Origin: Balanoglossus misakiensis
Lineage: Eukaryota > Animalia > Hemichordata
Assembly: GCA_040954595.2 (NCBI GenBank)
Contig: CM082597.2
Span: 3,741,824-3,805,823, forward strand
DNA length: 64,000 bases
Reading direction: 5' to 3'
In this document: positions 7,346 through 61,400 of the stretch, piece by piece
How positions within the stretch are numbered: position 1 is the first letter of the stretch
How the letters are laid out: each line of letters opens with the position of its first letter
Made by a program: the position numbers and the translations under genes
The notes under the pieces: generated by a model
Database searches by the model: none
Seen by the model: the letters and a program-made list of their open reading frames with translations, nothing else
What the model was told of the DNA's origin: nothing

Positions 7346-10300
7346 TCAGGTGAGTTCCTCAATCAGTTTCTTCCCTGGCTTAGGGGGCTTTGTGCCTCCC
7401 CAAGTTTCTTCCAATTTGTTCTGCACTTCCTGTTGTTGCTCTTCCTCACTTTTCATGGACACTGCAAAATTGAAGAAAGAAAAGAACGCGTTCAAGAAAC
7501 ACAATCAGCTGTGATGAAGAAGGATTTGCAACTAGTTGGATAATCGTCTGAAACACTTCATTCTTGTAAGTAATTGCTCTCAACTTTTGGCAGTTCAGTG
7601 ACAGTTAAGTTTGAAACTACACTTGCCCAATCACTGATAGTTTGGTGGGTGAAAAATACATGAAAACACATTTGGACTCTACTCTTCAAAAACAAAAATC
7701 TTTACCATATTCCATATGCACCTCCAAGGCAAGTGGTTTCAGAATATCACTGTAATCAACACACCAAGCCAGCAGAAATAAGACTTTTTTTCTGGCATGG
7801 AACAACTTTGTCTTCAACTTGGCAGCTTTAGTGCTAGTAGAACTGTCATCTTCACCATCAACTTTATCGGTTGGCTTCACTTTGCTTTCTACAAAGACAT
7901 GAAAAAAAATTACTCTTGACATGCTGACGATAAAATAATTAGCAACAGGCTAAATTCAAAGTATTCAATATACATGTATATGCATACCCGATAGTAGACA
8001 TTCATATAGAGTTTGAAAAAGTCATCATTGTTTTTAAAAGCAGCTGAGAGCAAATACATGGGTTGTGTTCGACTCTGAGAGAGGCTTTTCAATTTGAAAA
8101 TTCCAACCCCCCTTCCATTATGTAGTGTTCCAAATTTACCATATAAAACAACGGATTTGGACCAAACTAGGCTAGTTGAAGGGTTAAACTTACTTCTTTC
8201 GATTGCTCTCTTGGCTACCGTCAGCAATCTGTGCAAATCTGACAATGCTGCCATAGTGTAGAGAAGTGGTTTCTGCTTACTGGGGCCCGTCAATATTCTG
8301 ATTACATCAGCCAGTGTGGAGGTCATAAAAGATATGCCACTCCTCAAAGATTTGTCCTGTAAAAATACACTTGAATGATATCATCAAATAAGGGTAGTTT
8401 TGATTTATAACTGAGCAAAATTTAGTCACAAAGAAATTCTGGTAATAGTTGTTGTAAGAGGTTAGTGTGTGGTGGTAATACATGTCTAGCCACAGTTGAA
8501 TACGACAAAGATACAATTATGTTAAAACAGGCAGCTACAGATCCCACATTTAGATTTGGAATGAACATATACCATTCCCTCTAGATGAATATGCCGTGTG
8601 TAACTAACCTGGTTAAGTCTGTGTATTACACTATGTATGGCCTCCTCAGTGCTGTTGTATGTCTTGTTTTCGGACAACGCATGCGATACACGCAGACAAT
8701 CCTGCGCCAAGACGAAGATGCCAGCATTAGTATTAAACCACAAGCAACTACAGCTATACTGACAGTGCAAATTTGCCAGTCCTCCATTTAATTATACATT
8801 CTGGAATGATGTTTTTACAATTTGTATATAATGTAACATTCCTTCTTCCCACCCAAAATAATTTAAAATGTGAGCAAATTGTTTAACTATATGTTGCATG
8901 GTCACAAAGGCAGAAATTGGTTCTCCTTTGGTTATAGCCTATCTTATAGAACTGTGGAGAAAATAATAGTTACCTGAGTTGATTGTACGGCAACGTCAAA
9001 GTGTGAGCCATTGTAGAACTGTACAATATATACATAGGTAAATCTACATAGTAGTTAAAAATTATACACATACAGTATATAGCTGACATGATCTGAACAC
9101 TGTATTTGGTTACAGTGCATTTTGTCTAACGAAAAATGTACCACTTTTACAAATAGTTACTTGAGTTGATTGTACAGCAAGATCAAAGTGAGAACCATTG
9201 TAGAACTGTACTATATATACATAGGTAAATCTAAACAGGAGTTAAAAATTAATGAATATTGAAGAAAAAAAGACAATAGGATCTTCTCTTGTTTATTACC
9301 TATATTTTACAAGTTAGTGTACAAACTTGCTATTAAGCAAATCAACTTTATAACAATATGAGGTGAATCAGGTTCAAAAGACATCACAAATATAAGATAT
9401 ATAAGATTAAAATTTAAAGGATACACGACTTCAACCAGATTGAACTGCACACAGTCAGCAGGCTTACAACTTTTCAGAAGTTCTGTCAACTTTGGAATCT
9501 TCTCAAGAACTCTTGGACACTGACACACATCTTCTGTAGTGTCTTTTTGCATTTCGTCATCCAATTTGAATTCTTCTATAAGCTTTTGATCCTGTCGCAG
9601 GAAAATTGAGAACTATTAATAAAAAATATCCAATGTCACTGACTGAAATTTCATATCCTCTATTTATGGAAAGTAACAGCAGTTACAGGCTTTAATATTT
9701 CTGCTAACATATCACAAGAAATGCCCATGTGCACATACCAGGATAGTTGTGTACTCTTTTAATGGTCAGGTGAATAAACTCAAATTGAACATTCTATGTT
9801 CGAGAGTATTACATTATTTAAAATTTTGGTAGGCTTTAATCTCTTACATTAAAACACCAAACAAACCTGCTTTTTCCACCATGGTTTCCAAAGTGTGACT
9901 AGACCCCCTAGCTTGCCCTCTTTTATCAAACGTTGGAATTCCTGCTTCTCTTCTCCTGTCAACTTTTCCCACAATGCACCTGTGTCCTTATCTGGGGAAA
10001 AAAATACAGTTAGTAATCTGAAAACTTTTCATTCGTAAAACACACACACATGACCTGATGAAGGTTTAACCCTTTCACCACCATGGTTTGGTCAAAATCC
10101 ATTAGTTACTATGGCAAAGTTGGACCTCTTCACAAGGAAAGGGGGTGAACCTTGCACGCAAAAAAAATATATATACCCACTAACCAAGATCCAGTCCAGC
10201 TAATCTTTCTTCCATGGATTTCACACTTTCATCATCATCACCACCAACAGCCTCATCATTTTCCTCCTCAACTCTCTTCAGTATTTCCAACATCTTCCTC

Positions 10301-11355
10301 TTCTCCTCATCACTAAAAAAACAGTAGGTAGATTTTTAATTCTGTTTAAATTCCTGGTTGCATGTTATGAGGTCAACCAGAATATCCAGGTAGTTCTGTT
10401 CTGTTCTGTTGAGTTTTTAACAACAACACAATAATAATATTGGCTGTGCACATACAGCCTGTGATAATAAACTTATCACATGGCATTCGAAACTGTAGCA
10501 TAGAAAAAACAAAACAAGACAATGGAACTTCAACACTTCACATATTTAAATTAAGTGAACAATCAACATCACCAACCTGCCTCTTTGTTCCTTCAATGCT
10601 TCTATAAAACATTCTTTGTAGAACTGCTCTGAACACGATGAGTGTTGCTTTCAGGTTGGGATTAAAATACAACACACAGCACAATCAATTATGATGAAAG
10701 TTAGTGGTTATACATATATATATAACCTAAATCAGCAGTGTCCATATTTATCACCTCAACATTCTAAGAACTTCTCTTGTATAGTACCACACCAGCGCTG
10801 CGAGCACTTACCTCACATCTATAGCAGTCAATGGAGCAGTACTGGATATTGCATCTTGGACAGGTGTACTTGGAAAACTGCTTCAGACAGCTGAATGAAA
10901 ATACAAAATAGCCTATAACTGTTCTGACTTCACGTTACCTCTATATAAGCTTTAGTAATATGGGTGAAAGATACAGACAAGGTCTGTTTCGCCGTTCCAC
11001 ACGGACACCGATGATTGAATGAAACAATGTCTGGCTATGTTTAGCCTTGCGTACAGGTATGTTCCCGGGGTTACACGGCCTCTACCTAACAGGCGGTGAT
11101 GTGCTGGAGGCCGTGTAACGCCGGGAACACACAGACCTGTACGCTATGGCCAGTATGGGGCTTCGAGTTGTCATTTGAAAGCCTGTGGTTACAGCGATCT
11201 AAGCGAGTATTTTGCGTGATTATGGTAAGATCGAATTTGAGATCACCCTGTATTGTCACTTACAATTTACAGACGATTTTGTTGATTCCATCGCCGGAGC
11301 CACTAGCAGTTTCTTCCGAGATGAACTGCAACGTTCCCTCGTCGTCAGCCGCCAT
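7346..11355 (-). CDS. ZNHIT2: Zinc finger HIT domain-containing protein 2 (R2TP/U5 snRNP assembly factor); ~428 aa using one of two alternative exon-7 copies
   Basis: Minus-strand exons 11355-11264, 10890-10812, 10647-10577, 10312-10185, 9991-9867, 9591-9425, [9230-9161 or 9043-8974], 8701-8609, 8356-8194, 7888-7706, 7461-7346. Total 1287 nt, in frame. N-terminal zf-HIT CKFC..YTCPRCNIQYCSIDCY..H..CSEQFY, LW..LT..EKQEF, WKPWW, AALSDL, ARKKV.FLLAW and C-terminal LIEELT*. AATAAA on the minus strand near 7243-7248. Confidence 0.88.
8974..9043 (-). CDS. ZNHIT2: ZNHIT2 alternative exon 7b (70 nt; FTYVYIVQFYNGSHFDVAVQSTQ)
   Basis: Paralog of exon 7a (7 substitutions, 6 synonymous), with the same TTTTTAAC-10nt-AG acceptor and GTAACT donor. 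Confidence 0.8.
9161..9230 (-). CDS. ZNHIT2: ZNHIT2 alternative exon 7a (70 nt; FTYVYIVQFYNGSHFDLAVQSTQ)
   Basis: Preceded by TTTTTAAC-10nt-AG and followed by GTAACT; in frame with exon 6 (phase 2) and exon 8 (phase 0). Confidence 0.8.
9231..9424 (-). other. U12-type (minor spliceosome) GT-AG intron of ZNHIT2
   Basis: The donor reads GT|GTATCCTTTAAA on the minus strand, a full match to the U12 consensus RTATCCTTT. The branch-like TTTTTAAC ends 10 nt before the exon, and the polypyrimidine tract is weak. Confidence 0.8.
10066..10150. mobile_element. Short MITE-like interspersed repeat (TTAA-CCCTTTCACC terminus, piggyBac-like), copy 1
   Basis: ttaaccctttcaccac...ccatt...ctatgg...gttgg...ggggtga; homologous to 17036-17127. 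Confidence 0.6.
11042..11152. mobile_element. Palindromic (fold-back) MITE-like element in ZNHIT2 intron 1
   Basis: gcgtacaggt..gttcccgg.gttacacggcctc pairs with gaggccgtgtaac.ccgggaac..acctgtacgc. Confidence 0.65.
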
Positions 11356-11423
11356 GCTTGCCAGGTCAAAGGTCAAAGGGAATCCGCCGCCATGCTTGCC
11401 AGGTCAAAGGTCAAATGGAATCC
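11348..11423. promoter_or_regulatory. 38-bp direct tandem duplication spanning the ZNHIT2 start codon; each copy has a perfect DR1 (AGGTCAAAGGTCA) and a YY1-like ATGGCGGC
   Basis: gccgccatgcttgccaggtcaaaggtcaaa(g/t)ggaatcc occurs twice with a 38-nt period. Confidence 0.6.
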
Positions 11424-11887
11424 CCGCCCCCTTTCCATCTGTAACATTCAACGCGAAGAGCTTGCCCACGTTTCGATGACTACAACCGCGTTTTACCTCC
11501 TTGGGATAGGTCACCAAGTCTGTGATACTGTTAATAAGTGTCGTTGTCGAAACGCTTTGGTTCAAACACGTTGGTTTCACAAGTACTTTGCTGGTGAACG
11601 GAGTCGACACTCAAACATGTACACGTGTATGTGGCCATGGGGAAGGAATTATGAGATGATGGTGTTTCATGGATCCATAAGGTAAGTTGCGTTTAATATC
11701 ATATACAAAAAAATAAACAAGAAGTATATCAGTTTTAAAGTCGTCCTTCAAATAAGCCTCTAATAAGTGTATAGTTGAAAAACGTAGTTTCTGCACAAGG
11801 TTACATAAAATGTGCGTGAATCGACTTTTAAAGATGTCTGCCCCCTTAGCTGGTACCCTGACAACAAATAATGTAGGCCTATGTGTA

Positions 11888-14712
11888 TTACACTTTTTCT
11901 TCAATGGAAGGGAAACCTTTCAACGCAGAAATTGTATTTGGTATGGCATTCACGATGCGATCCCTGGCCCCAGGCCATGCACCTGGTCCCTGCAGACGAT
12001 ACCAGTAAGGGACCATTGGGCCATACTCAAACAGCATTGCTAGTTTAGGATCCTTTAGAATGAGACTCCAGAAAGATGGTTTTACGCCAAGGAATTCAGC
12101 TGATTCTTCAATCACTGTCGAATATGGTAGCTGTGTATAAAATACATAAACAAATAATTCAAAACAGGGCGATCATATGTTATAACATTGTATTTATACT
12201 GATGTGGTAAGATAATTAGGCCTAAAGATACCACAGAAAACTTGTATATCATACAGAAGATGTTGTTTCAGAAATCGTAATTTTCCTTTATACTAGATAC
12301 AGAACAGCCTGTGTCTGTGATTTTTTGTCATTTGGCCGTCCAGTAAACATTAACGACGATATGAAGTCATTACCGAAATCGCACGAATTTTACGTTGTAT
12401 CATTGAGTGTTAAATACTAAACCCTTACGCCAATTGCTTTGTTTCCTCTGATGTTTGTTGGCTTCTGGTCGATGTCTCGCTGCATTGTTGCTCTGTCAGG
12501 CAGAACAATTTCCCCAGCAAAAACTCTTGCAGCCAATCTTGCGTGAATTTCAGAAACCGGCCAATGTGGCCCTTTGACCGGCACCAAGTTAATTAATGCC
12601 AGGCGCTCTGGGTTTTCAAGGCGTGCTGGAAATACATACTTGTACAGGAGGACGTTGTCTGATTCATCTGTAAAGGCAAGTGATGCAAGTTTACAATAAT
12701 ATTATACATTTTAGTAAACGGTTTAAATATTGATATACCACCAATTGACCAATGACATAATTGAAGGTGACAACTCCATGAAAGTATTAGCTTAGTAAAG
12801 TTGACTCCTGCCTTACAATAATTACCATAAATCCACCGTTTGTCGATAACAGGTACAGCCCACTCATATCCTGTAGCAAAGATGACTGCATCAACATTTT
12901 CTAGCGTAGTGCCATCCTTCAGTATGACGTCATTGTTTTGGAACTCTTTGATTTCCACCACGCGTTTGATTTGACCTTGTGTAATCCGGTCCTGCATGTC
13001 ATCACTGATTAAAGGGTTCGTGGGATCGACATCTTTGGTCTGAAAAAAAGTGTAATAATTAAACACAGTATGATATAAAACTATTACATAAATTTGATAA
13101 TTTGACAAATCATCCGTACATGCAAGTTTTACTTAAATCAATAAAACAGACATAGATGCAGACAGCCCATGCCAAGGAAGGCAGGACAATACGTCAAAGT
13201 TCAATGTCTGATAACTTATTCTTTTCGTTGGTAATATACAATGCATTCTGGCCAATGTATCACTCTCTGTTAGAAACATCCACATATATACGGAATGGTA
13301 TAGTATACCTACTTGAAGACCGAATACATTCTGGTCACATACTCTGGTTCCGTAACACTTTTGCAAAATCGAGGATAGTTTTGACGGCGACTTCATTACT
13401 GATCGTGTGAAAGCAGTCATGTCGTATGGTATGCCATCTCGTCCTGCGCGAGGAAGGAACGAGACGCCGCGGCGCATGCTCAGGTATACCTGGAAAGAAG
13501 GGTGCCATTTATCATGGAGAGTGTGTCCTGGTAGTCGAAAATATGGAACAGTATGGGGGTCACACACACACACAAACTCATACACCATAAAGACGCTTCT
13601 GAAGCTTCTAAGATCAAATACCGCCTTAAAAACATATGTGGACGGTCAATAGAGGTTCTGAAACGGTTTAGTCTAAACAAAATATGGAATTTTGAAAAAA
13701 AAGTATGCAGGGTTTTAGCATAATGCTTCACAATCCTGTAAGGTTGCCATAAGTCATTTACGAACCTGTCCAGCGTTACGAGAGACTTCAGAGGAAACGT
13801 CAGAACCAGTTGAAGAACCACCTGTAAAATGATTTAATTAGTCTAATTAATATATGAAGTAGTTTATTCATGTGATATTTTGTTAATATACAGACGAGTA
13901 GCTCAGCAATAACAATGGCTAGTTAGGTACGTATAGGGCAGATGGAACGTCGATTCTGTCTTACCGACAACCAAGACTTTCTTCCATTTAAATTTGCTAC
14001 TTTCCCGATATTCATTCGCATGGATCATTATTCCCTTGAAGTCTTCTTGACCGGGATAGACCGGAGTATATGCTTTGCCGTAGGCACCAGTACACACCAT
14101 GACGTAATCAAAATATTGAACGGATGCTGTGCCGTCATTGGTCAGCAGATGGAGCCTCCAGAACTCGTTCCCGTCATGCTTTTCGAGTTTGGTCACCTTT
14201 GTATCGAACCTGATGTACTTCTCGAGGTCAAAGTGGGCTGCGTAGTCTTGCAGATGTTTAATACAGAGGCGATGACCAAAATAGGGTGTGTACTCTTGTG
14301 GAAAAGGGAAATCGGAAAACGAGAACATTTCTTTGCTTATATTTGTCACAAGTGTGTCGTATATGGCGCCGCCTTGTTCAGGTCGCAACTCAGACGTGTG
14401 GTACCACAATCCACCTGAAAAGGAAGTAGGATCTTAGAAACCTAATTTACATGCACTTTCCAACAAGGCAGGTAGCGAACAGTTCTGTTTTAAGTCACTT
14501 TAAAGTCATAATGTAGTTGTGTCAAAGGTAAACTCTTTTGAATGTTAATGTACCACAATGGTGATGGTTGTTTTGCAATCAGATGTGTTACCTAGTTTGT
14601 CGTGTCTCTCGAAGCAAGTCGGCTCCAACCCATCTTCTTCCAGACAACTTTTGATCGACGTGAGGCCAGAAACTCCAGCACCTATGATAGCCACGCGTTT
14701 CTTAGCAGCCAT
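11888..14712 (-). CDS. Flavin-containing monooxygenase (FMO family, paralog B); 7 exons, ~499 aa
   Basis: Exons 14712-14592, 14414-13965, 13821-13766, 13489-13313, 13039-12826, 12667-12429, 12130-11888 (1500 nt, in frame). FAD motif [33 protein letters not shown] fingerprint [37 protein letters not shown]. Confidence 0.93.
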
Positions 14713-36100: not shown

Positions 36101-39100
36101 CAAAACGACGACGGGTCGGAAGCGTTTGTGAAACTGCCCCCGTGCCCGGATGAAGACTTCCCGGTTATGGCCACTGTAACCTTAGCTGTAGCGTCATTAC
36201 GAGTCTAGTATTTCCATGAAATAGATTCACCACAGAACGAAATTTGTTATGGCTATGTTTGAAGGATACCTCGGCAGGATATTGTCACGGGGAACTTCTT
36301 TTAATTTTCCTGTGGGTTGACACACTTCTCATAACAACATCGCATGATGATAAGACTGTTTCTACGTGGTCGTTTGACTGACGTCTTCGATTGCCAGAGC
36401 TATACGTTTCATTCGCTCGCCCGCGGTGATCTGACATATTTATTTGGATAGAACATGGATCTGATGATTTGATCTACAACATCGGTTGGGAGTTTTGATA
36501 TTTATCTCCATCGCCGACAGATATCTCCAGATAAGCGTGTACTAGTTGTACTGATCAAATGCTGACAGACACCCCTTAAATAGTAAACTGACAGACAGAA
36601 ATTCGGTTTGAAACTGAAATCATGAAAATACTGTGAAAGATATAGTCGCCTAGGCTGTAGATAAGCATAGAAACAAACATTAACCCCAGAGATATTTGTT
36701 GTGATATCTCGAATCCGCTTGCGAGGTTATACTGTTTCAGTGTAAGATTCTTTGCTGGGCAACATGGTGGCAACCACCCATTTAGTTAATGGAATAAACT
36801 ATCAAATGGCGAAATGGCGAAGCATGTTCCACGGCTGGGTTGGATTTCAATAATTAAATAGAAATCTGATGAATGGTCTTTCTCAGTGTTCATTTTTTTT
36901 CTCTCTCTCTAAAAGTGCATACAGTATATGCCCGTGGTGCGTGACTTCAACTACGCGCAGTGGCCCGCGGCGAAACGACATTATCGTTGACAACAATGCA
37001 CGCTGTCAATCACACCTTAAAATTATGACGTAATTTTTTTTAAAAGCTTTTCACCACACGCGATGAAATCAATACGACAGACCATTTAACACTCGTTTTT
37101 TATCCTTTTATTTTTTTTCTCCGAATGAAAATTGTTTGCTTTTGCCATTTGCGTGACATCAACTGAGGTTTGCATTAGATTATGAATCAAGGACTGACGC
37201 ACTGCGTCTGAAATTTATCCCATCCAAATGACTCAAATTCGTCTAATTGATCCCAATGCCCCCACGATTTGTTTAATTTGGCATGTTTTTGAACGTTAGT
37301 CATGCTGTTAGTTAAAACGAAAGTAAATAAAGGCTTGATTGGAATTATTCCAGTTCTGCGCTCACCTGTTGACCTTTGACCTACAGTCTGGTAACCCCCT
37401 TGTCTTAAGCAAATGACTTCCTAGTGCGGTGTATTATCACAGCAACAGGATAATATTTTCCAGTTGCCTGTGGTTTCAAGAAATACGGCGTGTGTCTTAT
37501 TCAAAGCTGAGCCCTATTCAACCATTTTACAAAAACTCAGTATTGAAAGTTTAACATGACTCGTGCAGTAATCAATCGACCATGGATTACAAAGTTAAAT
37601 TAATTATTTCCCTCACAATCTAAATTAATTACTGTAAAATAACACTGGTACAAATGATTAACTAGTACAACATTGGTTTTGCAAATATATTCGTTTCATC
37701 ATTTTTATAGGCGCTGTTGTCCGCAGCAACAGTACGCATAAGTACTGAGACAACCCTGGTCATTCACTGCACTGAGTTCATGTCATGGTTGCATCTACAT
37801 ACAGGGTAGCACACCCTTAAATTCGCTGCTGGACACTATTGCCTCTTTAAACATCACTGTGACGAGCGCCGTGTGAAGGTTATCAATGTATGTATATAGC
37901 GTTCCCCTCGCGTTCGAAGCTAAATACCCCTTTCGCCCATTAGTCAAAATAAACGCCACCGTGAATTCAGCGCAAACTGTTTCCAAAAAATCTCGCAGCG
38001 AGTTTCCCACTGGGAGCGCCATTAGTGACTGAATAACAGGAAAATTAAATCTCTACAATATACAAAGTGCCTTTGTGTCCCTTCCGCGAACGTTTACAGA
38101 GTCTGTTAAACTAATTGCCCGCGGTACAGGTAGCCATTAATTTTTTTTTTCGGTAAGTGAAAAATACCCGCAGCGCCGTTGCTGCCTGTGTGACGTAAGC
38201 ATTACGAGTGCGCCCCCTGGGGGTAATAATCGAGGTGTTGAGATTTTAGTAGATCGTTCGTCTTGGACCCGGGGATGAGAAATGGCGGTGCGCAGCGGAG
38301 ACTGTGTCGCTACTTAATCTCGGTTAGTGTTCCCAGTTCATCTGTGCTGAAGTGGTTTAATGCACTGCAGATTGGACACGGCTTTCCGGTTGATATCGAA
38401 TAACGGCAATCAAATAAAACTGGTTGCCGAGAAATGCATTTGTGGAGTTTACACAGCTTTGTCAATCGCTATATTTTCTCATGAATACGTCACACGGTTG
38501 TGTGTGTGTCCATTCGGCAAACATGGAACCGCGTCTCTGATAACTCGAACCGATTCAACTGCTGTTGTTCGTACCATTGCGAGATAAAACAGATAAAGTC
38601 ATCGACCACCGCATCTTATAATTGAAAGTACACAGATTTTGATGACTCGGCGGATTATGTGGTCTTGGTGTTGACAATACAAAAAGAGAACAACTAAAGC
38701 GTGCCAGTACATTTTCAGCGCCAGCTTTCATAAAATTTTCTGATAACAATGATTTCCACCCATTCCTCTCTCATTTTTTTAATTCAACGAGGCAAAATTT
38801 ATGACGTCAAAACAGTTGTGACGTCATGTTAATCATATGACTTATATCGCATTGATACCCTTTAACCTGCCTTCCTTCAGTTCTACAGATTTAATATTAT
38901 GTCTCTTCCACTTTTTGTGGTACTAAATATTTTTATTATCACTCGCACACTTGCCTGGCAAGACAAGTATTGCGTGTAGTCTCTTTCCAGACATGCCCCA
39001 CGCGTTCATTAAAAGCATGACCTTCTAATGCAGAAATTGTGTAAATTATTGTTCTAATAGAAAATGTAATTAGAAGCGGGGGATCGGTCTTCCAAAGGTT

Positions 39101-49284: not shown

Positions 49285-49450
49285 CTTGACTTTCTGAATT
49301 TAGATATTTTTTGGGCGTTTTTGAACATTTTTCATGGGTTATACATCATGATTTTTGTCGAAAAATGACCAATTTTCGATTTGCCGAATTTTGATTTTTC
49401 GGGCCTTTTTGAACATTTTTCATGGGTTATACATCATGATTTTTTTCGAA
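49285..49450 (-). repeat. About two diverged copies of the 88-bp satellite in inverted orientation at the array edge
   Basis: ttgaacatttttcatgggttatacatcatgattttt and ttgccgaatttt are reverse complements of the array monomer, with substitutions. Confidence 0.85.
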
Positions 49451-52400
49451 AATGTTCAAAACGGCCGAAAATCTCGAAATTCGGCAACTCGAAAATTCGT
49501 GTTTTTTCGACAAAAACCATGATGGTTAACCCATGAAAAATTTTCAAAACGGCCGAAAATCTCGAAATTCGGCAACTCGAAAATTCGCGGTTTTTCGACA
49601 AAAACCATGATGGTTACCCCATGAAAAATGTTCAAAACGGCCGAAAATCTCGAAATTCGGCAACTCGAAAATTCGCGGTTTTTCGACAAAAACCATGATG
49701 GTTAACCCATGAAAAATGTTCAAAACGGCCGAAAATCTCGAAATTCGGCAACTCGAAAATTCGCGGTTTTTCGACAAAAACCATGATGGTTAACCCATGA
49801 AAAATGTTCAAAACGGCCGAAAATCTCGAAATCCGGCAACTCGAAAATTCGTGGTTTTTCGACAAAAACCATGATGGTTAACCCATGAAAAATGTTGAAA
49901 AAGGCCGAAAATCTCGAAATCCGGCAACTCGAAAATTCGCGGTTTTTCGACAAAAACCATGATGGTTAACCCATGAAAAATGTTGAAAAAGGCCGAAAAT
50001 CTCGAAATCCGGCAACTCGAAAATTCGTGGTTTTTCGACAAAAACCATGATGGTTAACCCATGAAAAATGTTCAAAACGGCCGAAAATCTCGAAATTCGG
50101 CAACTCGAAAATTCGCGGTTTTTCGACAAAAACCATGATGGTTAACCCATGAAAAATGTTCAAAACGGCCGAAAATCTCGAAATCCGGCAACTCGAAAAT
50201 TCGTGGTTTTTCGACAAAAACCATGATGGTTAACCCATGAAAAATGTTCAAAAAGGCCGAAAATCTCGAAATCCGGCAACTCGAAAATTCGTGGTTTTTC
50301 GACAAAAACCATGATGGTTAACCCATGAAAAATGTTCAAAAAGGCCGAAAATCTCGAAATCCGGCAACTCGAAAATTCGTGGTTTTTCGACAAAAACCAT
50401 GATGGTTAACCCATGAAAAATGTTGAAAAAGGCCGAAAATCTCGAAATCCGGCAACTCGAAAATTCGTGGTTTTTCGACAAAAACCATGATGGTTAACCC
50501 ATGAAAAATGTTGAAAAAGGCCGAAAATCTCGAAATCCGGCAACTCGAAAATTCGTGGTTTTTCGACAAAAACCATGATGGTTAACCCATGAAAAATGTT
50601 GAAAAAGGCCGAAAATCTCGAAATCCGGCAACTCGAAAATTCGTGATTTTTCGACAAAAACCATGATGGTTAACCCATGAAAAATGTCGAAAAAGGCCGA
50701 AAATCTCGAAATCTGGCAACTCGAAAATTCGTGGTTTTTCGACAAAAACCATGATGGTTAACCCATGAAAAATGTTCAAAACGGCCGAAAATCTCGAAAT
50801 CCGGCAACTCGAAAATTCGTGGTTTTTCGACAAAAACCATGATGGTTAACCCATGAAAAATGTTCAAAACGGCCGAAAATCTCGAAATTCGGCAACTCGA
50901 AAATTCGCGGTTTTTCGACAAAAACCATGATGGTTAACCCATGAAAAATGTTCAAAACGGCCGAAAATCTCGAAATCCGGCAACTCGAAAATTCGTGGTT
51001 TTTCGACAAAAACCATGATGGTTAACCCATGAAAAATGTTGAAAAAGGCCGAAAATCTGGAAATCCGGCAACTCGAAAATTCGTGGTTTTTCGACAAAAA
51101 CCATGATGGTTAACCCATGAAAAATGTTCAAAACGGCCGAAAATCTCGAAATTCGGCAACTCGAAAATTCGCGTTTTTTCGACAAAAACCATGATGGTTA
51201 ACCCATGAAAAATGTTCAAAACGGCCGAAAATCTCGAAATCCGGCAACTCGAAAATTCGTGGTTTTTCGACAAAAACCATGATGGTTAATCCATGAAAAA
51301 TGTTCAAAAAGGCCGAAAATCTCGAAATCCGGCAACTCGAAAATTCGTGGTTTTTCGACAAAACCATGATGGTTAACCCATGAAAAATGTCGAAAAAGGC
51401 CGAAAATCTCGAAATCCGGCAACTCGAAAATTCGTGATTTTTCGACAAAAACCATGATGGTTAACCCATGAAAAATGTTAAAAAAGGCCGAAAATCTCGA
51501 AATCCGGCAACTCGAAAATTCGCGGTTTTTCGACAAAAACCATGATGGTTAACCCAGGAAAAATGTTCAAAACGGCCGAAAATCTCGAAATCCGGCAACT
51601 CGAAAATTCGTGGTTTTTCGACAAAAACCATGATGGTTAACCCATGAAAAATGTTGAAAAAGGCCGAAAATCTTGAAATCCGGCAACTCGAAAATTCGTG
51701 GTTTTTCGAAAAAAACCATGATGGTTAACACATGAAAAATGTTCAAAACGGCCGAAAATCTCGAAATTCGGCAACTCGAAAATTCGCGGTTTTTCGACAA
51801 AAACCATGATGGTTAACCCATGAAAAATGTTCAAAACGGCCGAAAATCTCGAAATCCGGCAACTCGAAAATTCGTGGTTTTTCGACAAAAACCATGATGG
51901 TTAACCCATGAAAAATGTTCAAAAAGGCCGAAAATCTCGAAATCCGGCAACTCGAAAATTCGTGGTTTTTCGACAAAAACCATGATGGTTAACCCATGAA
52001 AAATGTTGAAAAAGGCCGAAAATCTCGAAATCCGGCAACTCGAAAATTCGTGGTTTTTCGACAAAAACCATGATGGTTAACCCATGAAAAATGTTCAAAA
52101 CGGCCGAAAATCTCGAAATTCGGCAACTCGAAAATTCGCGGTTTTTCGACAAAAACCATGATGGTTAACCCATGAAAAATGTTCAAAACGGCCGAAAATC
52201 TCGAAATCCGGCAACTCGAAAATTCGTGGTTTTTCGACAAAAACCATGATGGTTAACCCATGAAAAATGTTGAAAAAGGCCGAAAATCTCGAAATCCGGC
52301 AACTCGAAAATTCGTGGTTTTTCGACAAAAACCATGATGGTTAACCCATGAAAAATGTTGAAAAAGGCCGAAAATCTCGAAATCCGGCAACACGAAAATT

Positions 52401-55400
52401 CGTGGTTTTTCGACAAAAACCATGATGGTTAACCCATGAAAAATGTTCAAAACGGCCGAAAATCTCGAAATCCGGCAACTCGAAAATTCGTGGTTTTTCG
52501 ACAAAAACCATGATGGTTAACCCATGAAAAATGTTGAAAAAGGCCGAAAATCTCGAAATCCGGCAACTCGAAAATTCGTGGTTTTTCGACAAAAACCATG
52601 ATGGTTAACCCATGAAAAATGTTGAAAAAGGCCGAAAATCTCGAAATCCGGCAACTCGAAAATTCGTGGTTTTTCGACAAAAACCATGATGGTTAACCCA
52701 TGAAAAATGTCGAAAAAGGCCGAAAATCTCGAAATCCGGCAACTCGAAAATTCGTGGTTTTTCGACAAAAACCATGATGGTTAACCCATGAAAAATGTTG
52801 AAAAAGGCCGAAAATCTCGAAATCCGGCAACTCGAAAATTCGTGGTTTTTCGACAAAAACCATGATGGTTAACCCATGAAAAATGTTGAAAAAGGCCGAA
52901 AATCTCGAAATCCGGCAACTCGAAAATTCGTGATTTTTCGACAAAAACCATGATGGTTAACCCATGAAAAATGTTGAAAAAGGCCGAAAATCTCGAAATC
53001 CGGCAACTCGAAAATTCGCGGTTTTTCGACAAAAACCATGATGGTTAACCCAGGAAAAATGTTCAAAACGGCCGAAAATCTCGAAATCCGGCAACTCGAA
53101 AATTCGTGGTTTTTCGACAAAAACCATGATGGTTAACCCATGAAAAATGTTGAAAAAGGCCGAAAATCTGGAAATCCGGCAACTCGAAAATTCGTGGTTT
53201 TTCGACAAAAACCATGATGGTTAACCCATGAAAAATGTTCAAAACGGCCGAAAATCTCGAAATCCGGCAACTCGAAAATTCGTGGTTTTTCGACAAAAAC
53301 CATGATGGTTAACCCATGAAAAATGTTGAAAAAGGCCGAAAATCTCGAAATCCGGCAACTCGAAAATTCGTGGTTTTTCGACAAAAACCATGATGGTTAA
53401 CCCATGAAAAATGTCGAAAAAGGCCGAAAATCTCGAAATCCGGCAACTCGAAAATTCGTGGTTTTTCGACAAAAACCATGATGGTTAACCCATGAAAAAT
53501 GTTGAAAAAGGCCGAAAATCTCGAAATCCGGCAACTCGAAAATTCGTGGTTTTTCGACAAAAACCATGATGGTTAACCCATGAAAAATGTTGAAAAAGGC
53601 CGAAAATCTCGAAATCCGGCAACTCGAAAATTCGTGATTTTTCGACAAAAACCATGATGGTTAACCCATGAAAAATGTTGAAAAAGGCCGAAAATCTCGA
53701 AATCCGGCAACTCGAAAATTCGCGGTTTTTCGACAAAAACCATGATGGTTAACCCAGGAAAAATGTTCAAAACGGCCGAAAATCTCGAAATCCGGCAACT
53801 CGAAAATTCGTGGTTTTTCGACAAAAACCATGATGGTTAACCCATGAAAAATGTTGAAAAAGGCCGAAAATCTGGAAATCCGGCAACTCGAAAATTCGTG
53901 GTTTTTCGACAAAAACCATGATGGTTAACCCATGAAAAATGTTCAAAACGGCCGAAAATCTCGAAATTCGGCAACTCGAAAATTCGCGGTTTTTCGACAA
54001 AAACCATGATGGTTAACCCATGAAAAATGTTCAAAACGGCCGAAAATCTCGAAATCCGGCAACTCGAAAATTCGTGGTTTTTCGACAAAAACCATGATGG
54101 TTAACCCATGAAAAATGTTGAAAAAGGCCGAAAATCTCGAAATCCGGCAACTCGAAAATTCGTGGTTTTTCGACAAAAACCATGATGGTTAACCCATGAA
54201 AAATGTTGAAAAAGGCCGAAAATCTCGAAATCCGGCAACTCGAAAATTTGTGATTTTTCGACAAAAACCATGATGGTTAACCCATGAAAAATGTCGAAAA
54301 AGGCCGAAAATCTCGAAATCCGGCAACTCGAAAATTCGCGGTTTTTCGACAAAAACCATGATGGTTAACCCATGAAAAATGTTCAAAAAGGCCGAAAATC
54401 TCGAAATCCGGCAACTCGAAAATTCGTGGTTTTTCGACAAAAACCATGATGGTTAACCCATGAAAAATGTTGAAAAAGGCCGAAAATCTCGAAATCCGGC
54501 AACTCGAAAATTCGTGGTTTTTCGACAAAAACCATGATGGTTAACCCATGAAAAATGTTGAAAAAGGCCGAAAATCTCGAAATCCGGCAACTCGAAAATT
54601 CGTGGTTTTTCGACAAAAACCATGATGGTTAACCCATGAAAAATGTTGAAAAAGGCCGAAAATCTCGAAATCCGGCAACTCGAAAATTCGTGGTTTTTCG
54701 ACAAAAACCATGATGGTTAACCCATGAAAAATGTCGAAAAAGGCCGAAAATCTCGAAATCCGGCAACTCGAAAATTCGTGGTTTTTCGACAAAAACCATG
54801 ATGGTTAACCCATGAAAAATGTTGAAAAAGGCCGAAAATCTCGAAATCCGGCAACTCGAAAATTCGTGGTTTTTCGACAAAAACCATGATGGTTAACCCA
54901 TGAAAAATGTTGAAAAAGGCCGAAAATCTCGAAATCCGGCAACTCGAAAATTCGTGATTTTTCGACAAAAACCATGATGGTTAACCCATGAAAAATGTTG
55001 AAAAAGGCCGAAAATCTCGAAATCCGGCAACTCGAAAATTCGCGGTTTTTCGACAAAAACCATGATGGTTAACCCAGGAAAAATGTTCAAAACGGCCGAA
55101 AATCTCGAAATCCGGCAACTCGAAAATTCGTGGTTTTTCGACAAAAACCATGATGGTTAACCCATGAAAAATGTTGAAAAAGGCCGAAAATCTCGAAATC
55201 CGGCAACTCGAAAATTCGTGATTTTTCGACAAAAACCATGATGGTTAACCCATGAAAAATGTTGAAAAAGGCCGAAAATCTCGAAATCCGGCAACTCGAA
55301 AATTCGCGGTTTTTCGACAAAAACCATGATGGTTAACCCAGGAAAAATGTTCAAAACGGCCGAAAATCTCGAAATCCGGCAACTCGAAAATTCGTGGTTT

Positions 55401-58400
55401 TTCGACAAAAACCATGATGGTTAACCCATGAAAAATGTTAAAAAAGGCCGAAAATCTGGAAATCCGGCAACTCGAAAATTCGTGGTTTTTCGACAAAAAC
55501 CATGATGGTTAACCCATGAAAAATGTTCAAAACGGCCGAAAATCTCGAAATTCGGCAACTCGAAAATTCGCGGTTTTTCGACAAAAACCATGATGGTTAA
55601 CCCATGAAAAATGTTCAAAACGGCCGAAAATCTCGAAATCCGGCAACTCGAAAATTCGTGGTTTTTCGACAAAAACCATGATGGTTAACCCATGAAAAAT
55701 GTTGAAAAAGGCCGAAAATCTCGAAATCCGGCAACTCGAAAATTCGTGGTTTTTCGACAAAAACCATGATGGTTAACCCATGAAAAATGTTGAAAAAGGC
55801 CGAAAATCTCGAAATCCGGCAACTCGAAAATTTGTGATTTTTCGACAAAAACCATGATGGTTAACCCATGAAAAATGTCGAAAAAGGCCGAAAATCTCGA
55901 AATCCGGCAACTCGAAAATTCGCGGTTTTTCGACAAAAACCATGATGGTTAACCCATGAAAAATGTTCAAAACCGCCGAAAATCTCGAAATCCGGCAACT
56001 CGAAAATTCGTGGTTTTTCGACAAAAACCATGATGGTTAACCCATGAAAAATGTTGAAAAAGGCCGAAAATCTCGAAATCCGGCAACTCGAAAATTCGTG
56101 GTTTTTCGACAAAAACCATGATGGTTAACCCATGAAAAATGTTGAAAAAGGCCGAAAATCTCGAAATCCGGCAACTCGAAAATTCGTGGTTTTTCGACAA
56201 AAACCATGATGGTTAACCCATGAAAAATGTTGAAAAAGGCCGAAAATCTCGAAATCCGGCAACACGAAAATTCGTGGTTTTTCGACAAAAACCATGATGG
56301 TTAACCCATGAAAAATGTTCAAAACGGCCGAAAATCTCGAAATCCGGCAACTCGAAAATTCGTGGTTTTTCGACAAAAACCATGATGGTTAACCCATGAA
56401 AAATGTTGAAAAAGGCCGAAAATCTCGAAATCCGGCAACTCGAAAATTCGTGGTTTTTCGACAAAAACCATGATGGTTAACCCATGAAAAATGTTGAAAA
56501 AGGCCGAAAATCTCGAAATCCGGCAACTCGAAAATTCGTGGTTTTTCGACAAAAACCATGATGGTTAACCCATGAAAAATGTTGAAAAAGGCCGAAAATC
56601 TCGAAATCCGGCAACTCGAAAATTCGTGGTTTTTCGACAAAAACCATGATGGTTAACCCATGAAAAATGTTGAAAAAGGCCGAAAATCTCGAAATCCGGC
56701 AACTCGAAAATTCGTGGTTTTTCGACAAAAACCATGATGGTTAACCCATGAAAAATGTTGAAAAAGGCCGAAAATCTCGAAATCCGGCAACTCGAAAATT
56801 CGTGGTTTTTCGACAAAAACCATGATGGTTAACCCATGAAAAATGTTGAAAAAGGCCGAAAATCTCGAAATCCGGCAACTCGAAAATTCGTGGTTTTTCG
56901 ACAAAAACCATGATGGTTAACCCATGAAAAATGTTGAAAAAGGCCGAAAATCTCGAAATCCGGCAACTCGAAAATTCGTGGTTTTTCGACAAAAACCATG
57001 ATGGTTAACCCATGAAAAATGTTGAAAAAGGCCGAAAATCTCGAAATCCGGCAACTCGAAAATTCGTGGTTTTTCGACAAAAACCATGATGGTTAACCCA
57101 TGAAAAATGTCGAAAAAGGCCGAAAATCTCGAAATCCGGCAACTCGAAAATTCGTGATTTTTCGACAAAAACCATGATGGTTAACCCATGAAAAATGTTG
57201 AAAAAGGCCGAAAATCTCGAAATCCGGCAACTCGAAAATTCGCGGTTTTTCGACAAAAACCATGATGGTTAACCCAGGAAAAATGTTCAAAACGGCCGAA
57301 AATCTCGAAATCCGGCAACTCGAAAATTCGTGGTTTTTCGACAAAAACCATGATGGTTAACCCATGAAAAATGTTGAAAAAGGCCGAAAATCTCGAAATC
57401 CGGCAACTCGAAAATTCGTGGTTTTTCGACAAAAACCATGATGGTTAACCCATGAAAAATGTTGAAAAAGGCCGAAAATCTCGAAATCCGGCAACTCGAA
57501 AATTCGTGGTTTTTCGACAAAAACCATGATGGTTAACCCATGAAAAATGTTGAAAAAGGCCGAAAATCTCGAAATCCGGCAACTCGAAAATTCGTGGTTT
57601 TTCGACAAAAACCATGATGGTTAACCCATGAAAAATGTCGAAAAAGGCCGAAAATCTCGAAATCCGGCAACTCGAAAATTCGTGGTTTTTCGACAAAAAC
57701 CATGATGGTTAACCCATGAAAAATGTTGAAAAAGGCCGAAAATCTCGAAATCCGGCAACTCGAAAATTCGTGGTTTTTCGACAAAAACCATGATGGTTAA
57801 CCCATGAAAAATGTCGAAAAAGGCCGAAAATCTCGAAATCCGGCAACTCGAAAATTCGTGGTTTTTCGACAAAAACCATGATGGTTAACCCATGAAAAAT
57901 GTCGAAAAAGGCCGAAAATCTCGAAATCCGGCAACTCGAAAATTCGTGGTTTTTCGACAAAAACCATGATGGTTAACCCATGAAAAATGTCGAAAAAGGC
58001 CGAAAATCTCGAAATCCGGTAACTCGAAAATTCGTGGTTTTTCGACAAAAACCATGATGGTTAACCCATGAAAAATGTCGAAAAAGGCCGAAAATCTCGA
58101 AATCCGGTAACTCGAAAATTTGTGGTTTTTCGACAAAAACCATGATGGTTAACCCATGAAAAATGTTGAAAAAGGCCGAAAATCTCGAAATCCGGTAACT
58201 CGAAAATTCGTGGTTTTTCGACAAAAACCATGATGGTTAACCCATGAAAAATGTCGAAAAAGGCCGAAAATCTCGAAATCCGGCAACTCGAAAATTCGTG
58301 GTTTTTCGACAAAAACCATGATGGTTAACCCATGAAAAATGTCGAAAAAGGCCGAAAATCTCGAAATCCGGTAACTCGAGAATTTGTGGTTTTTCGACAA

Positions 58401-61400
58401 AAACCATGATGGTTAACCCATGAAAAATGTTGAAAAAGGCCGAAAATCTCGAAATCCGGTAACTCGAAAATTCGTGGTTTTTCGACAAAAACCATGATGG
58501 TTAACCCATGAAAAATGTCGAAAAAGGCCGAAAATCTCGAAATCCGGCAACTCGAAAATTCGTGGTTTTTCGACAAAAACCATGATGGTTAACCCATGAA
58601 AAATGTCGAAAAAGGCCGAAAATCTCGAAATCCGGCAACTCGAAAATTCGTGGTTTTTCGACAAAAACCATGATGGTTAACCCATGAAAAATATCGAAAA
58701 AGGCCGAAAATCTCGAAATCCGGCAACTCGAAAATTCGTGGTTTTTCGACAAAAACCATGATGGTTAACCGATGAAAAATGTTGAAAAAGGCCGAAAATC
58801 GCGAAATCCGGCAACTCGAAAATTCGTGGTTTTTCGACAAAAACCATGATGGTTAACCCATGAAAAATGTCGAAAAAGGCCGAAAATCTCGAAATCCGGC
58901 AACTCGAAAATTCGTGGTTTTTCGACAAAAACATGATGGTTAACCCATGAAAAATGTCGAAAAAGGCCGAAAATCTCGAAATCCGGCAACTCGAAAATTC
59001 GTGGTTTTTCGACAAAAACCATGATGGTTAACCCATGAAAAATGTCGAAAAAGGCCGAAAATCTCGAAATCCGGCAACTCGAAAATTCGTGATTTTTCGA
59101 CAAAAACCATGATGGTTAACCCATGAAAAATGTCGAAAAAAGGCCGAAAATCTCGAAATCCGGCAACTCGAAAATTCGTGGTTTTTCGACAAAAACCATG
59201 ATGGTTAACCCATGAAAAATGTCGAAAAAGGCCGAAAATCTCGAAATCCGGCAACTCGAAAATTCGTGGTTTTTCGACAAAAACCATGATGGTTAACCCA
59301 TGAAAAATGTCGAAAAAGGCCGAAAATCTCGAAATCCGGCAACTCGAAAATTCGTGGTTTTTCGACAAAAACCATGATGGTTAACCCATGAAAAATGTCG
59401 AAAAAGGCCGAAACCGAAAATCTCGAAATCCGGCAACTCGAAAATTCGTGGTTTTTCGACAAAAACCATGATGGTTAACCCATGAAAAATGTCGAAAAAG
59501 GCCGAAAATCTCGAAATCCGGCAACTCGAAAATTCGTGGTTTTTCGACAAAAACCATGATGGTTAACCCATGAAAATGTCGAAAAAGGCCGAAAATCTCG
59601 AAATCCGGCAACTCGAAAATTCGTGGTTTTTCGACAAAAACCATGATGGTTAACCCATGAAAAATGTCGAAAAAGGCCGAAAATCTCGAAATCCGGCAAC
59701 TCGAAAATTCGTGGTTTTTCGACAAAAACCATGATGGTTAACCCATGAAAAATGTCGAAAAAGGCCGAAAATCTCGAAATCCGGCAACTCGAAAATTCGT
59801 GGTTTTTCGACAAAAACCATGGTGGTTAACCCATGAAAAATGTCGAAAAAGGCCGAAAATCTCGAAATCCGGCAACTCGAAAATTCGTGGTTTTTCGACA
59901 AAAACCATGGTGGTTAACCCATGAAAAATGTCGAAAAAGGCCGAAAATCTCGAAATCCGGCAACTCGAAAATTCGTGATTTTTCGACAAAAACCATGATG
60001 GTTAACACATGAAAAATGTCGAAAAAGGCCGAAAATCTCGAAATCCGGCAACTCGAAAATTCGTGGTTTTTCGACAAAAACCATGATGGTTAACCCATGA
60101 AAAATGTCGAAAAAGGCCGAAAATCTCGAAATCCGGCAACTCGAAAATTCGTGGTTTTTCGACAAAAACCATGATGGTTAACCCATGAAAAATGTCGAAA
60201 AAGGCCGAAAATCTCGAAATCCGGCAACTCGAAAATTCGTGGTTTTTCGACAAAAACCATGATGGTTAACCCATGAAAAATGTCGAAAAAGGCCGAAAAT
60301 CTCGAAATCCGGCAACTCGAAAATTCGTGGTTTTTCGACAAAAACCATGATGGTTAACCCATGAAAAATGTCGAAAAAGGCCGAAAATCTCGAAATCCGG
60401 CAACTCGAAAATTCGTGGTTTTTCGACAAAAACCATGATGGTTAACCCATGAAAAATGTCGAAAAAGGCCGAAAATCTCGAAATCCGGCAACTCGAAAAT
60501 TCGTGGTTTTTCGACAAAAACCATGATGGTTAACCCATGAAAAATGTCGAAAAAGGCCGAAAATCTCGAAATCCGGCAACTCGAAAATTCGTGGTTTTTC
60601 GACAAAAACCATGATGGTTAACCCATGAAAAATGTCGAAAAAGGCCGAAAATCTCGAAATCCGGCAACTCGAAAATTCGTGGTTTTTCGACAAAAACCAT
60701 GATGGTTAACCCATGAAAAATGTCGAAAAAGGCCGAAAATCTCGAAATCCGGCAACTCGAAAATTCGTGGTTTTTCGACAAAAACCATGATGGTTAACCC
60801 ATGAAAAATGTCGAAAAAGGCCGAAAATCTCGAAATCCGGCAACTCGAAAATTCGTGGTTTTTCGACAAAAACCATGATGGTTAACCCATGAAAAATGTC
60901 GAAAAAGGCCGAAAATCTCGAAATCCGGCAACTCGAAAATTCGTGGTTTTTCGACAAAAACCATGATGGTTAACCCATGAAAAATGTCGAAAAAGGCCGA
61001 AAATCTCGAAATCCGGCAACTCGAAAATTCGTGGTTTTTCGACAAAAACCATGATGGTTAACCCATGAAAAATGTCGAAAAAGGCCGAAAATCTCGAAAT
61101 CCGGCAACTCGAAAATTCGTGGTTTTTCGACAAAAACCATGATGGTTAACCCATGAAAAATGTCGAAAAAGGCCGAAAATCTCGAAATCCGGCAACTCGA
61201 AAATTCGTGGTTTTTCGACAAAAACCATGATGGTTAACCCATGAAAAATGTCGAAAAAGGCCGAAAATCTCGAAATCCGGCAACTCGAAAATTCGTGGTT
61301 TTTCGACAAAAACCATGATGGTTAACCCATGAAAAATGTCGAAAAAGGCCGAAAATCTCGAAATCCGGCAACTCGAAAATTCGTGGTTTTTCGACAAAAC

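What the first reader, a model, noticed from the sequence alone, without database searches (positions are those of the whole stretch)
8974..9430. ZNHIT2 has duplicated exons arranged for mutually exclusive splicing by U12/U2 spliceosome incompatibility
Seen in the sequence: exon 6 ends at a perfect minor-spliceosome donor (GTATCCTTT, first intron base 9424, minus strand). Two 70-nt paralogous exons follow (9230-9161 and 9043-8974). Each has TTTTTAAC 10 nt before its AG and each is followed by a major-type donor, GTAACT. The copies differ at 7 positions, 6 of them synonymous third positions and one Leu/Val, while the flanking introns diverge outside the splice signals. That pattern suggests both copies are under coding selection. 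Established: an intron with a U2 donor and a U12 acceptor splices poorly, and this is the mechanism described for vertebrate JNK exons 6a/6b; ZNHIT2 helps assemble U5 snRNP, which both spliceosomes share; human ZNHIT2 is intronless. Including both exons or neither shifts the frame. Inference: this is an independently evolved hybrid U12/U2 mutually exclusive cassette. The two proteins are nearly identical, so it may act as a regulatory or redundancy device (for example, a minor-spliceosome sensor coupled to NMD) in a spliceosome-assembly gene.
Basis: partly seen in the sequence, partly recalled or inferred. Interest (0 to 1): 0.85.

Follow-up and report, generated by a model that had tools for sequence, protein, structure and literature searches.

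The report
Twin exons behind acorn-worm minor intron
A gene for a splicing-machinery assembly protein (ZNHIT2), likely from an acorn worm, carries two intact, near-identical copies of one exon behind a rare minor-type intron start, likely used one at a time; this is a new, probably young case of a known either-or splicing layout, and no RNA data yet show that both copies are used.

Summary
A ZNHIT2 orthologue, sister to Ptychodera flava, has a perfect U12 donor at 9424 and two 70-nt copies of exon 7. Each has a U12-like branch site and a U2 donor. Six of 7 differences are synonymous (dN/dS about 0.03), the flanks no longer align, and 'one copy dead since duplication' is rejected (p 0.0002-0.03). 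Either copy gives a 428-aa protein; both or neither give early stops. The mechanism needs correcting. JNK and TMEM87 have the mirror layout (U12 donor, U2 acceptor between the copies), and U2 donors are known to splice to U12 acceptors. Exclusion here is likely partial incompatibility plus nonsense-mediated decay. Copy A's donor is weak (lacks both -1G and +5G). No RNA, genome or orthologous hemichordate DNA was available, so use of both copies is inferred. The sensor idea is untested; the minor intron alone would do it. This scan noted the same kind of layout before in other genes and genomes (p38, RPB5, ZDHHC14, TUSC3, PLCb4; unchecked notes), never in ZNHIT2. New member of a known kind; moderate interest.

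The parts
7346..11355 (-). ZNHIT2 coding span. Exons 11355-11264, 10890-10812, 10647-10577, 10312-10185, 9991-9867, 9591-9425, [7A or 7B], 8701-8609, 8356-8194, 7888-7706, 7461-7346; 428 aa
   Evidence: Open frame with either copy, aligns end to end with P. flava ZNHIT2-like; zf-HIT PF04438 E 1e-8 in exon 2; 68% identity, sister to P. flava 98/97
9425..9591 (-). Exon 6, ends in phase 2 inside a Val codon
   Evidence: 69% identical to P. flava protein
9416..9424 (-). U12-type (minor) GT-AG donor GTATCCTTT
   Evidence: 9 of 9 to the recalled U12 consensus, 5 of 11 to the recalled U1 consensus; unique in first 50 kb
9290..9305 (-). Intron element predicted to pair with the acceptor and first bases of exon 7A (weak, may be chance)
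   Evidence: helix probability 0.78-0.96; local z -1.83, 11 of 200 shuffles as good
9241..9248 (-). U12-like branch site A (TTTTTAAC), branch A at -12
   Evidence: two C-to-T departures from the recalled consensus TCCTTAAC
9161..9230 (-). Exon 7A, 70 nt, keeps the ancestral Leu; ends CAA
9152..9160 (-). U2-type donor of 7A (CAA|GTAACTATT), weak: neither -1G nor +5G
   Evidence: the only one of the gene's 10 U2 donors lacking both
9044..9160 (-). 117-nt hybrid intron: U2 donor, U12-like branch site and AG
   Evidence: about 105 nt from donor to branch site, so no steric block by the <50-nt criterion of PMC5740500
9054..9061 (-). U12-like branch site B (TTTTTAAC), branch A at -12; pyrimidine-poor acceptor
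   Evidence: pyrimidine fraction 0.55 at -14..-4, lowest of the 11 acceptors (others 0.64-0.91)
8974..9043 (-). Exon 7B, 70 nt, carries the derived Val; ends CAG
8965..8973 (-). U2-type donor of 7B (CAG|GTAACTATT), 10 of 11 to U1 consensus
8609..8701 (-). Exon 8, U2-type acceptor shared by both copies

Best explanation
Exon 7 of this likely acorn-worm ZNHIT2 gene is duplicated in tandem behind a minor-type donor, and each transcript likely keeps one copy, giving two proteins that differ by one Leu/Val. The minor spliceosome would join the single U12 donor to acceptor A or acceptor B; the major spliceosome would then join that copy's donor to exon 8. Skipping both would need a U12 donor on a U2 acceptor, the combination blocked in JNK. 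Including both needs a U2 donor on B's U12-like, pyrimidine-poor acceptor, which is likely inefficient but not impossible; what leaks through is frameshifted and would be removed by nonsense-mediated decay. The pair is likely kept by a dosage trap, not by two protein functions: while each copy is used in a share of messages, damage to its coding sequence, its AG or its donor wastes that share, and only a clean loss of a branch site would be free.
For: Shown: layout, frames and stops. Both copies: stop inside 7B after 259 aa. Neither: stop in exon 8 after 245 aa. Both stops are more than 350 nt before the last junction. A plus retained middle intron stops at 9112. Selection: 6 of 7 differences synonymous, dS 0.59, dN 0.019; 'one copy neutral since duplication' p 0.009-0.03 by binomial and 0.0002-0.002 by likelihood ratio; an unconstrained period could cover at most about 30-40% of the time since duplication. 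Flanks have decayed to chance while both cores and their splice signals are intact. The Leu/Val column holds L, I, M or V in relatives. Hemichordates have minor introns (Saccoglossus, PMC10639083 passage). Acanthaster isoforms X1/X2 differ by two residues exactly at the homologous junction, which fits a nearby alternative acceptor at an intron in the same place (inference from proteins only). A branch-site C-to-U change activated cryptic sites in WDFY1, which supports the trap idea.
Against: No RNA evidence (one search listed no run; a blank, not a negative). Copy A's donor is weak and competes with B's stronger, closer donor. Both branch sites depart from the consensus at two positions. B's acceptor is only slightly poorer in pyrimidines than ordinary U2 acceptors of the gene (0.59 at -20..-4, equal to exon 9), so the block on A+B is not demonstrated. 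The three P. flava isoforms carry one version of this segment; no second version was seen in the isoform sets of Branchiostoma, Patiria or Acanthaster. The selection tests rest on 7 to 10 differences and cannot exclude recent silencing.
Confidence: 0.55

Rival explanations
1. Both copies were used for a long time, but one (most likely 7A) is now silent or rare and has only begun to decay.
For: 7A's donor lacks both -1G and +5G, unlike all 9 other U2 donors of the gene. A predicted hairpin could mask its acceptor (not significant). Up to 30-40% of the time since duplication could have been unconstrained.
Against: 7A has the residue of the three named hemichordates at the only differing position, an intact frame, AG and branch site, and lies nearest the U12 donor. 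The best estimate of unconstrained time is 5-7%.
Confidence: 0.2
2. The pair is an adaptive feedback device: the balance of major to minor spliceosome activity decides how many messages take a dead-end route (A+B, or A with the middle intron retained), setting the level of a U5 snRNP assembly factor.
For: ZNHIT2 bridges R2TP and U5 snRNP (PMC5460035). Such circuits are described for SRSF10 and CENATAC (PMC8329584). Weak donor A beside strong donor B creates a dead-end route that a single exon would not have. Near-identical products leave regulation as a candidate reason for retention.
Against: The minor intron alone already couples output to minor-spliceosome activity. The sign is not homeostatic: less minor splicing would give less ZNHIT2 and less U5 (inference). 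No conserved intron element beyond the splice signals. The intron is absent in all 41 metagenome loci that cover the junction, and no second species with the duplication was found.
Confidence: 0.12
3. The two copies come from two former ZNHIT2 paralogues fused by a deletion, or are kept alike by gene conversion, so the synonymous bias is inherited and one copy need not be used now.
For: Tandem ZNHIT2-like paralogues exist in a relative (three Patiria records on a contig of the same length). Identity falls sharply outside the 100-nt core.
Against: Needs two events. No other ZNHIT2 fragment in the window (tblastn). Conversion alone does not bias differences to synonymous sites.
Confidence: 0.08
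4. Assembly or haplotype artefact.
For: No reads could be laid.
Against: 41% divergence at synonymous sites and unalignable flanks are far beyond allelic difference; only 100 nt are repeated.
Confidence: 0.03

Closest known systems
Vertebrate JNK (MAPK8/9) exons 6a/6b with the U2-U12 hybrid intron (PMC1874599; PMC3584512)
   Same: Tandem duplicated exon flanked by one minor and one major intron, with a mixed intron between the copies.
   Different: Mirror image: in JNK the copies share U2 acceptors and U12 donors (middle intron U12 donor, U2 acceptor). JNK exons are 72 nt, in frame, differ at many residues and are tissue-regulated; here 70 nt, frameshifting, one residue apart, no regulation shown.
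TMEM87A/B exons 11/11a (PMC6717393; PMC8329584)
   Same: Mutually exclusive exons around a minor intron.
   Different: Same polarity as JNK, 72-nt exons, shown by RNA-seq and RT-PCR.
Human MAPK14 (p38 alpha) 80-nt mutually exclusive exons
   Same: Annotated pair of 80 nt, not a multiple of three (PMC5740500 supplement row); MAPK14 is U12-regulated (PMC12637451 passage). From recall, and from unchecked scan note e1-7708314, the minor intron lies upstream of the pair, the polarity seen here.
   Different: The upstream position was not confirmed in any paper I read. The two p38 peptides differ at many residues; here one.
SRSF10, CENATAC and dUrp minor/major competition circuits in splicing-factor genes (PMC8329584; PMC3584512)
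   Same: A splicing-machinery gene whose output depends on a minor intron, with stop-codon-bearing alternative products.
   Different: Those use nested introns or competing donors and are conserved or tested; none is a duplicated exon, and nothing regulatory is shown here.

Membership tests
ZNHIT2 orthologues | N-terminal zf-HIT finger and full-length similarity to named ZNHIT2 proteins | tested here: met
   PF04438; end-to-end alignment; tree
U12-type GT-AG intron | 5' splice site GTATCCTTT | tested here: met
   9 of 9 at 9424; consensus recalled
U12-type GT-AG intron | TCCTTAAC-like branch site 11-13 nt from the 3' end | tested here: inconclusive
   TTTTTAAC with branch A at -12 in both copies fits the distance in PMC3584512 but has two C-to-T departures; no intronIC score run
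U12-type GT-AG intron | Excision depends on U11/U12/U4atac/U6atac | not testable with these tools
   needs knockdown
Mutually exclusive exon pair | Neighbouring homologous exons of the same length and phase with intact splice sites | tested here: met
Mutually exclusive exon pair | Both copies under coding constraint | tested here: met
   dN/dS about 0.03; p 0.0002-0.03 against one neutral copy; few differences
Mutually exclusive exon pair | Each copy seen in mRNA, never or rarely both | not testable with these tools
   no RNA run listed; no protein of this species found
JNK/TMEM87-type hybrid intron | Middle intron has a U12 donor and a U2 acceptor | tested here: not met
   middle intron has a U2 donor and a U12-like acceptor
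Steric-hindrance mutually exclusive exons | Donor to branch point under 50 nt | tested here: not met
   117-nt intron, branch A at -12
Docking site / selector mutually exclusive exons | Competing complementary elements, conserved across species | tested here: inconclusive
   no convincing pairing in one sequence; conservation not testable
Minor-spliceosome feedback circuits (SRSF10, CENATAC) | Isoform ratio and protein level respond to minor-spliceosome activity | not testable with these tools
   needs knockdown and NMD inhibition

The most novel reading that the evidence does not exclude
A lineage-specific exon duplication turned a minor intron in a U5 snRNP assembly gene into a major-versus-minor spliceosome balance sensor: two copies that encode the same protein are kept because competition between weak donor A, strong donor B and two U12 acceptors routes a tunable share of ZNHIT2 messages into decay.
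Probability: 0.12. Interest if true: 0.75.

Novelty: new member of a known kind. Interest (0 to 1): 0.42.

Why it matters
Published U2/U12 mutually exclusive pairs are few (5 of 629 human clusters in PMC5740500) and old, with diverged peptides. This one looks young and its products are near-identical, so it may show how such cassettes arise and persist before the copies gain different functions: an exon next to a minor intron can duplicate with either-or splicing largely built in. It is also a compact (about 900 nt) natural minigene for an open point: how well a U2 donor is kept off a U12 acceptor.

Tried and rejected
No whole genome is held. No RNA holder was listed; this is no evidence either way, and no reads could be laid. 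A search with exon 6 found 1 protein among 4 candidates, none from this species. Isoform sets checked for a second exon-7 version: P. flava 3, Branchiostoma 4 (X1/X2 differ at the C-terminus), Acanthaster 2 and Patiria 3: none. 84 of 122 stored proteins matched an exon-7 profile, none twice. Metagenome scan: best 80 of 155 confirmed loci kept; 41 of 80 cover the junction, in 13 sequence groups, one holding 25 loci; all 41 read through it in frame (39 by an automatic pattern, 2 by eye), none has two copies; their taxa were not determined and none resembles a hemichordate protein closely. Competing RNA structure: of 9 segment pairs, one (exon A with intron 7) beat 40 of 40 shuffles, but it has large internal loops and the real sequence was scanned more finely than the shuffles, so I do not count it. 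Steric block rejected (117-nt intron). Rfam: no match in the window. Literature: 'ZNHIT2' with 'minor intron' gave 0 papers; 'duplicated exons', 'U12-type intron', 'mutually exclusive', 'tandem' gave 1 review, seen as a listing only; ZNHIT2 had 0 hits in the one held supplement of PMC11347168 and in earlier scan findings. Appendix Fig S18 of PMC5740500, which names the five human cases, was not found in the held supplements, so their polarity is unknown to me. intronIC was not run.

Full report
Observation. The minus strand holds a complete ZNHIT2 gene from 11355 to 7346. With either 9230-9161 (7A) or 9043-8974 (7B) as seventh exon the frame is open for 428 residues and aligns end to end with Ptychodera flava ZNHIT2-like isoforms. 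Exon 2 carries the HIT finger. A 14-protein tree places it beside P. flava with 98/97 support, inside a four-row hemichordate clade, so the source is likely a ptychoderid acorn worm. Exon 6 ends at GTATCCTTT (9424), the only such 9-mer on either strand of the first 50 kb. The two copies lie in a 100-nt repeat, 90% identical, 187 nt apart. Each has TTTTTAAC, eight bases and AG in front, and GTAACTATT behind.

Are both copies alive? The 23 full codons differ at 7 sites, 6 synonymous and one Leu/Val; dS is 0.59 and dN 0.019. If one copy had been neutral since the duplication, so strong a bias has p 0.009 to 0.03 depending on transition weighting. A likelihood test gives 0.002 on coding sites alone, 0.0009 with the 8-nt spacer counted as neutral, and 0.0002 with splice signals counted as constrained. 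The upper limit for an unconstrained period is about 30-40% of the time since duplication, best estimate 5-7%. Outside the core, none of 8 alignments beat shuffles (p 0.16-0.99). The counts are small, the region was picked for its similarity, and one of the six synonymous changes is also a splice-site position. Recent silencing is therefore not excluded, nor is an origin from two once-separate paralogues.

Splice signals. The branch A sits at -12 in both copies, inside the 11-13 nt optimum given in PMC3584512 (passages). The motif has T for C at two consensus positions (consensus recalled); one such change weakened a human U12 intron (PMC1874599, parts 1-3 of 5 read). Acceptor B has the lowest pyrimidine share of the gene's 11 acceptors close to the AG (0.55), but over a wider window it ties with exon 9 (0.59). 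Donor A (CAA|GTAACT) is the only one of the 10 U2 donors lacking both -1G and +5G; donor B (CAG|GTAACT) matches 10 of 11 U1 consensus positions. That such donors are weak is recalled knowledge. Both copies give a stop inside 7B, neither gives a stop in exon 8, each over 350 nt before the last junction, and A with the middle intron retained stops at 9112.

Mechanism. In JNK the middle intron has a U12 donor and a U2 acceptor, and TMEM87A/B are the same (PMC6717393 passages; PMC8329584 section 7 read). Here it is the mirror image. This matters: U2 donors splice to the AG acceptor of U12 introns in WDFY1 mutants, in CENATAC and in MAPK12, and donor point mutations convert GT-AG minor introns to major ones. 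So skipping both copies is the strongly blocked path, while including both is likely only discouraged and then cleared by decay. The middle intron is 117 nt, too long for the steric criterion of PMC5740500 (passages). I found no convincing competing RNA structure; a hairpin over acceptor A is matched by 11 of 200 shuffles. My best reading is one-or-the-other use with retention by a dosage trap. The layout, frames and constraint are shown; use of both copies, minor-spliceosome dependence, decay and the trap are inferred.

Relatives. No genome or RNA run was available. No relative's protein set shows a second version of this segment. Acanthaster isoforms differ by two residues exactly at the junction, as a nearby alternative acceptor would give, which suggests the intron position is shared with sea stars; its type there is unknown. 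All 41 of 80 metagenome loci that cover the junction lack an intron there (13 groups). One intron-rich locus, L072, shares four intron positions exactly, including the one after exon 7, and a fifth within one column, but not this one (my model of L072 is unreliable after its seventh intron). So the minor intron is either lost in those lineages or confined to deuterostomes. Both copies share Gln and Phe where P. flava, Glandiceps and Saccoglossus differ, which points to a duplication within this lineage (inference). Saccoglossus has minor introns (PMC10639083 passage).

Regulation. ZNHIT2 links R2TP to U5 snRNP (PMC5460035 passages), and its C-terminal domain, which likely includes exon 7, binds RUVBL1-RUVBL2 (PMC8789047 passages). 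Minor/major circuits in splicing-factor genes exist. But a single minor intron already senses minor-spliceosome activity, the sign would not be homeostatic, and nothing regulatory is conserved or shown. I give the sensor reading 0.12.

Novelty. I found no paper on a minor intron or exon pair in ZNHIT2, within a library that lacks most subscription journals. The kind is known: five human clusters (the figure naming them was not visible). MAPK14 has an annotated 80-nt pair (supplement row) and, from recall, the same polarity as here. PMC11347168, PMC6865273 and PMC12637451 were seen as passages. Earlier notes of this scan report such layouts in at least six other genes (unchecked). This is a new member of a known kind, distinguished by youth, near-identical products and its host gene. 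Interest 0.42.

Noticed in passing
window 11345-11428, minus strand: A 38-nt tandem duplication spans the ZNHIT2 start codon. The upstream copy gives an out-of-frame ATG at 11393 opening a six-codon ORF that stops at 11373, 17 nt before the main ATG; if transcribed it could lower translation.
   Followed up: partly
window 49449-64000: Satellite of 88-nt units, 165 copies, 97% matches, strong AT skew; the ZNHIT2 gene lies about 38 kb from it.
   Followed up: no
window about 11890-13500, minus strand: 3' exons of a flavin monooxygenase gene (PF00743) end about 530 nt upstream of the ZNHIT2 start, same strand.
   Followed up: partly
window 8108-8196 and 10057-10145; 11057-11132: An 89-nt inverted pair (74% complementary) in introns 9 and 4 brackets the exon pair; a 26-nt-arm hairpin lies in intron 1. 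Possibly short mobile elements.
   Followed up: no
window 36260-36282, minus strand: Two U12-donor-like motifs 13 nt apart; I saw no obvious exon context on reading the stretch, so probably chance.
   Followed up: partly
proteins P0056 and P0010 (Acanthaster planci isoforms X1, X2): Differ by two residues at the junction homologous to the minor intron.
   Followed up: partly
proteins P0008, P0054, P0055 (Patiria miniata): Three ZNHIT2-like records over 90% alike on a contig of the same length: probably tandem paralogues.
   Followed up: no
L072 1007-3884: Intron-rich ZNHIT2 sharing most intron positions with the window's gene but lacking the minor-intron position and having an extra intron 15 columns upstream.
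   Followed up: partly
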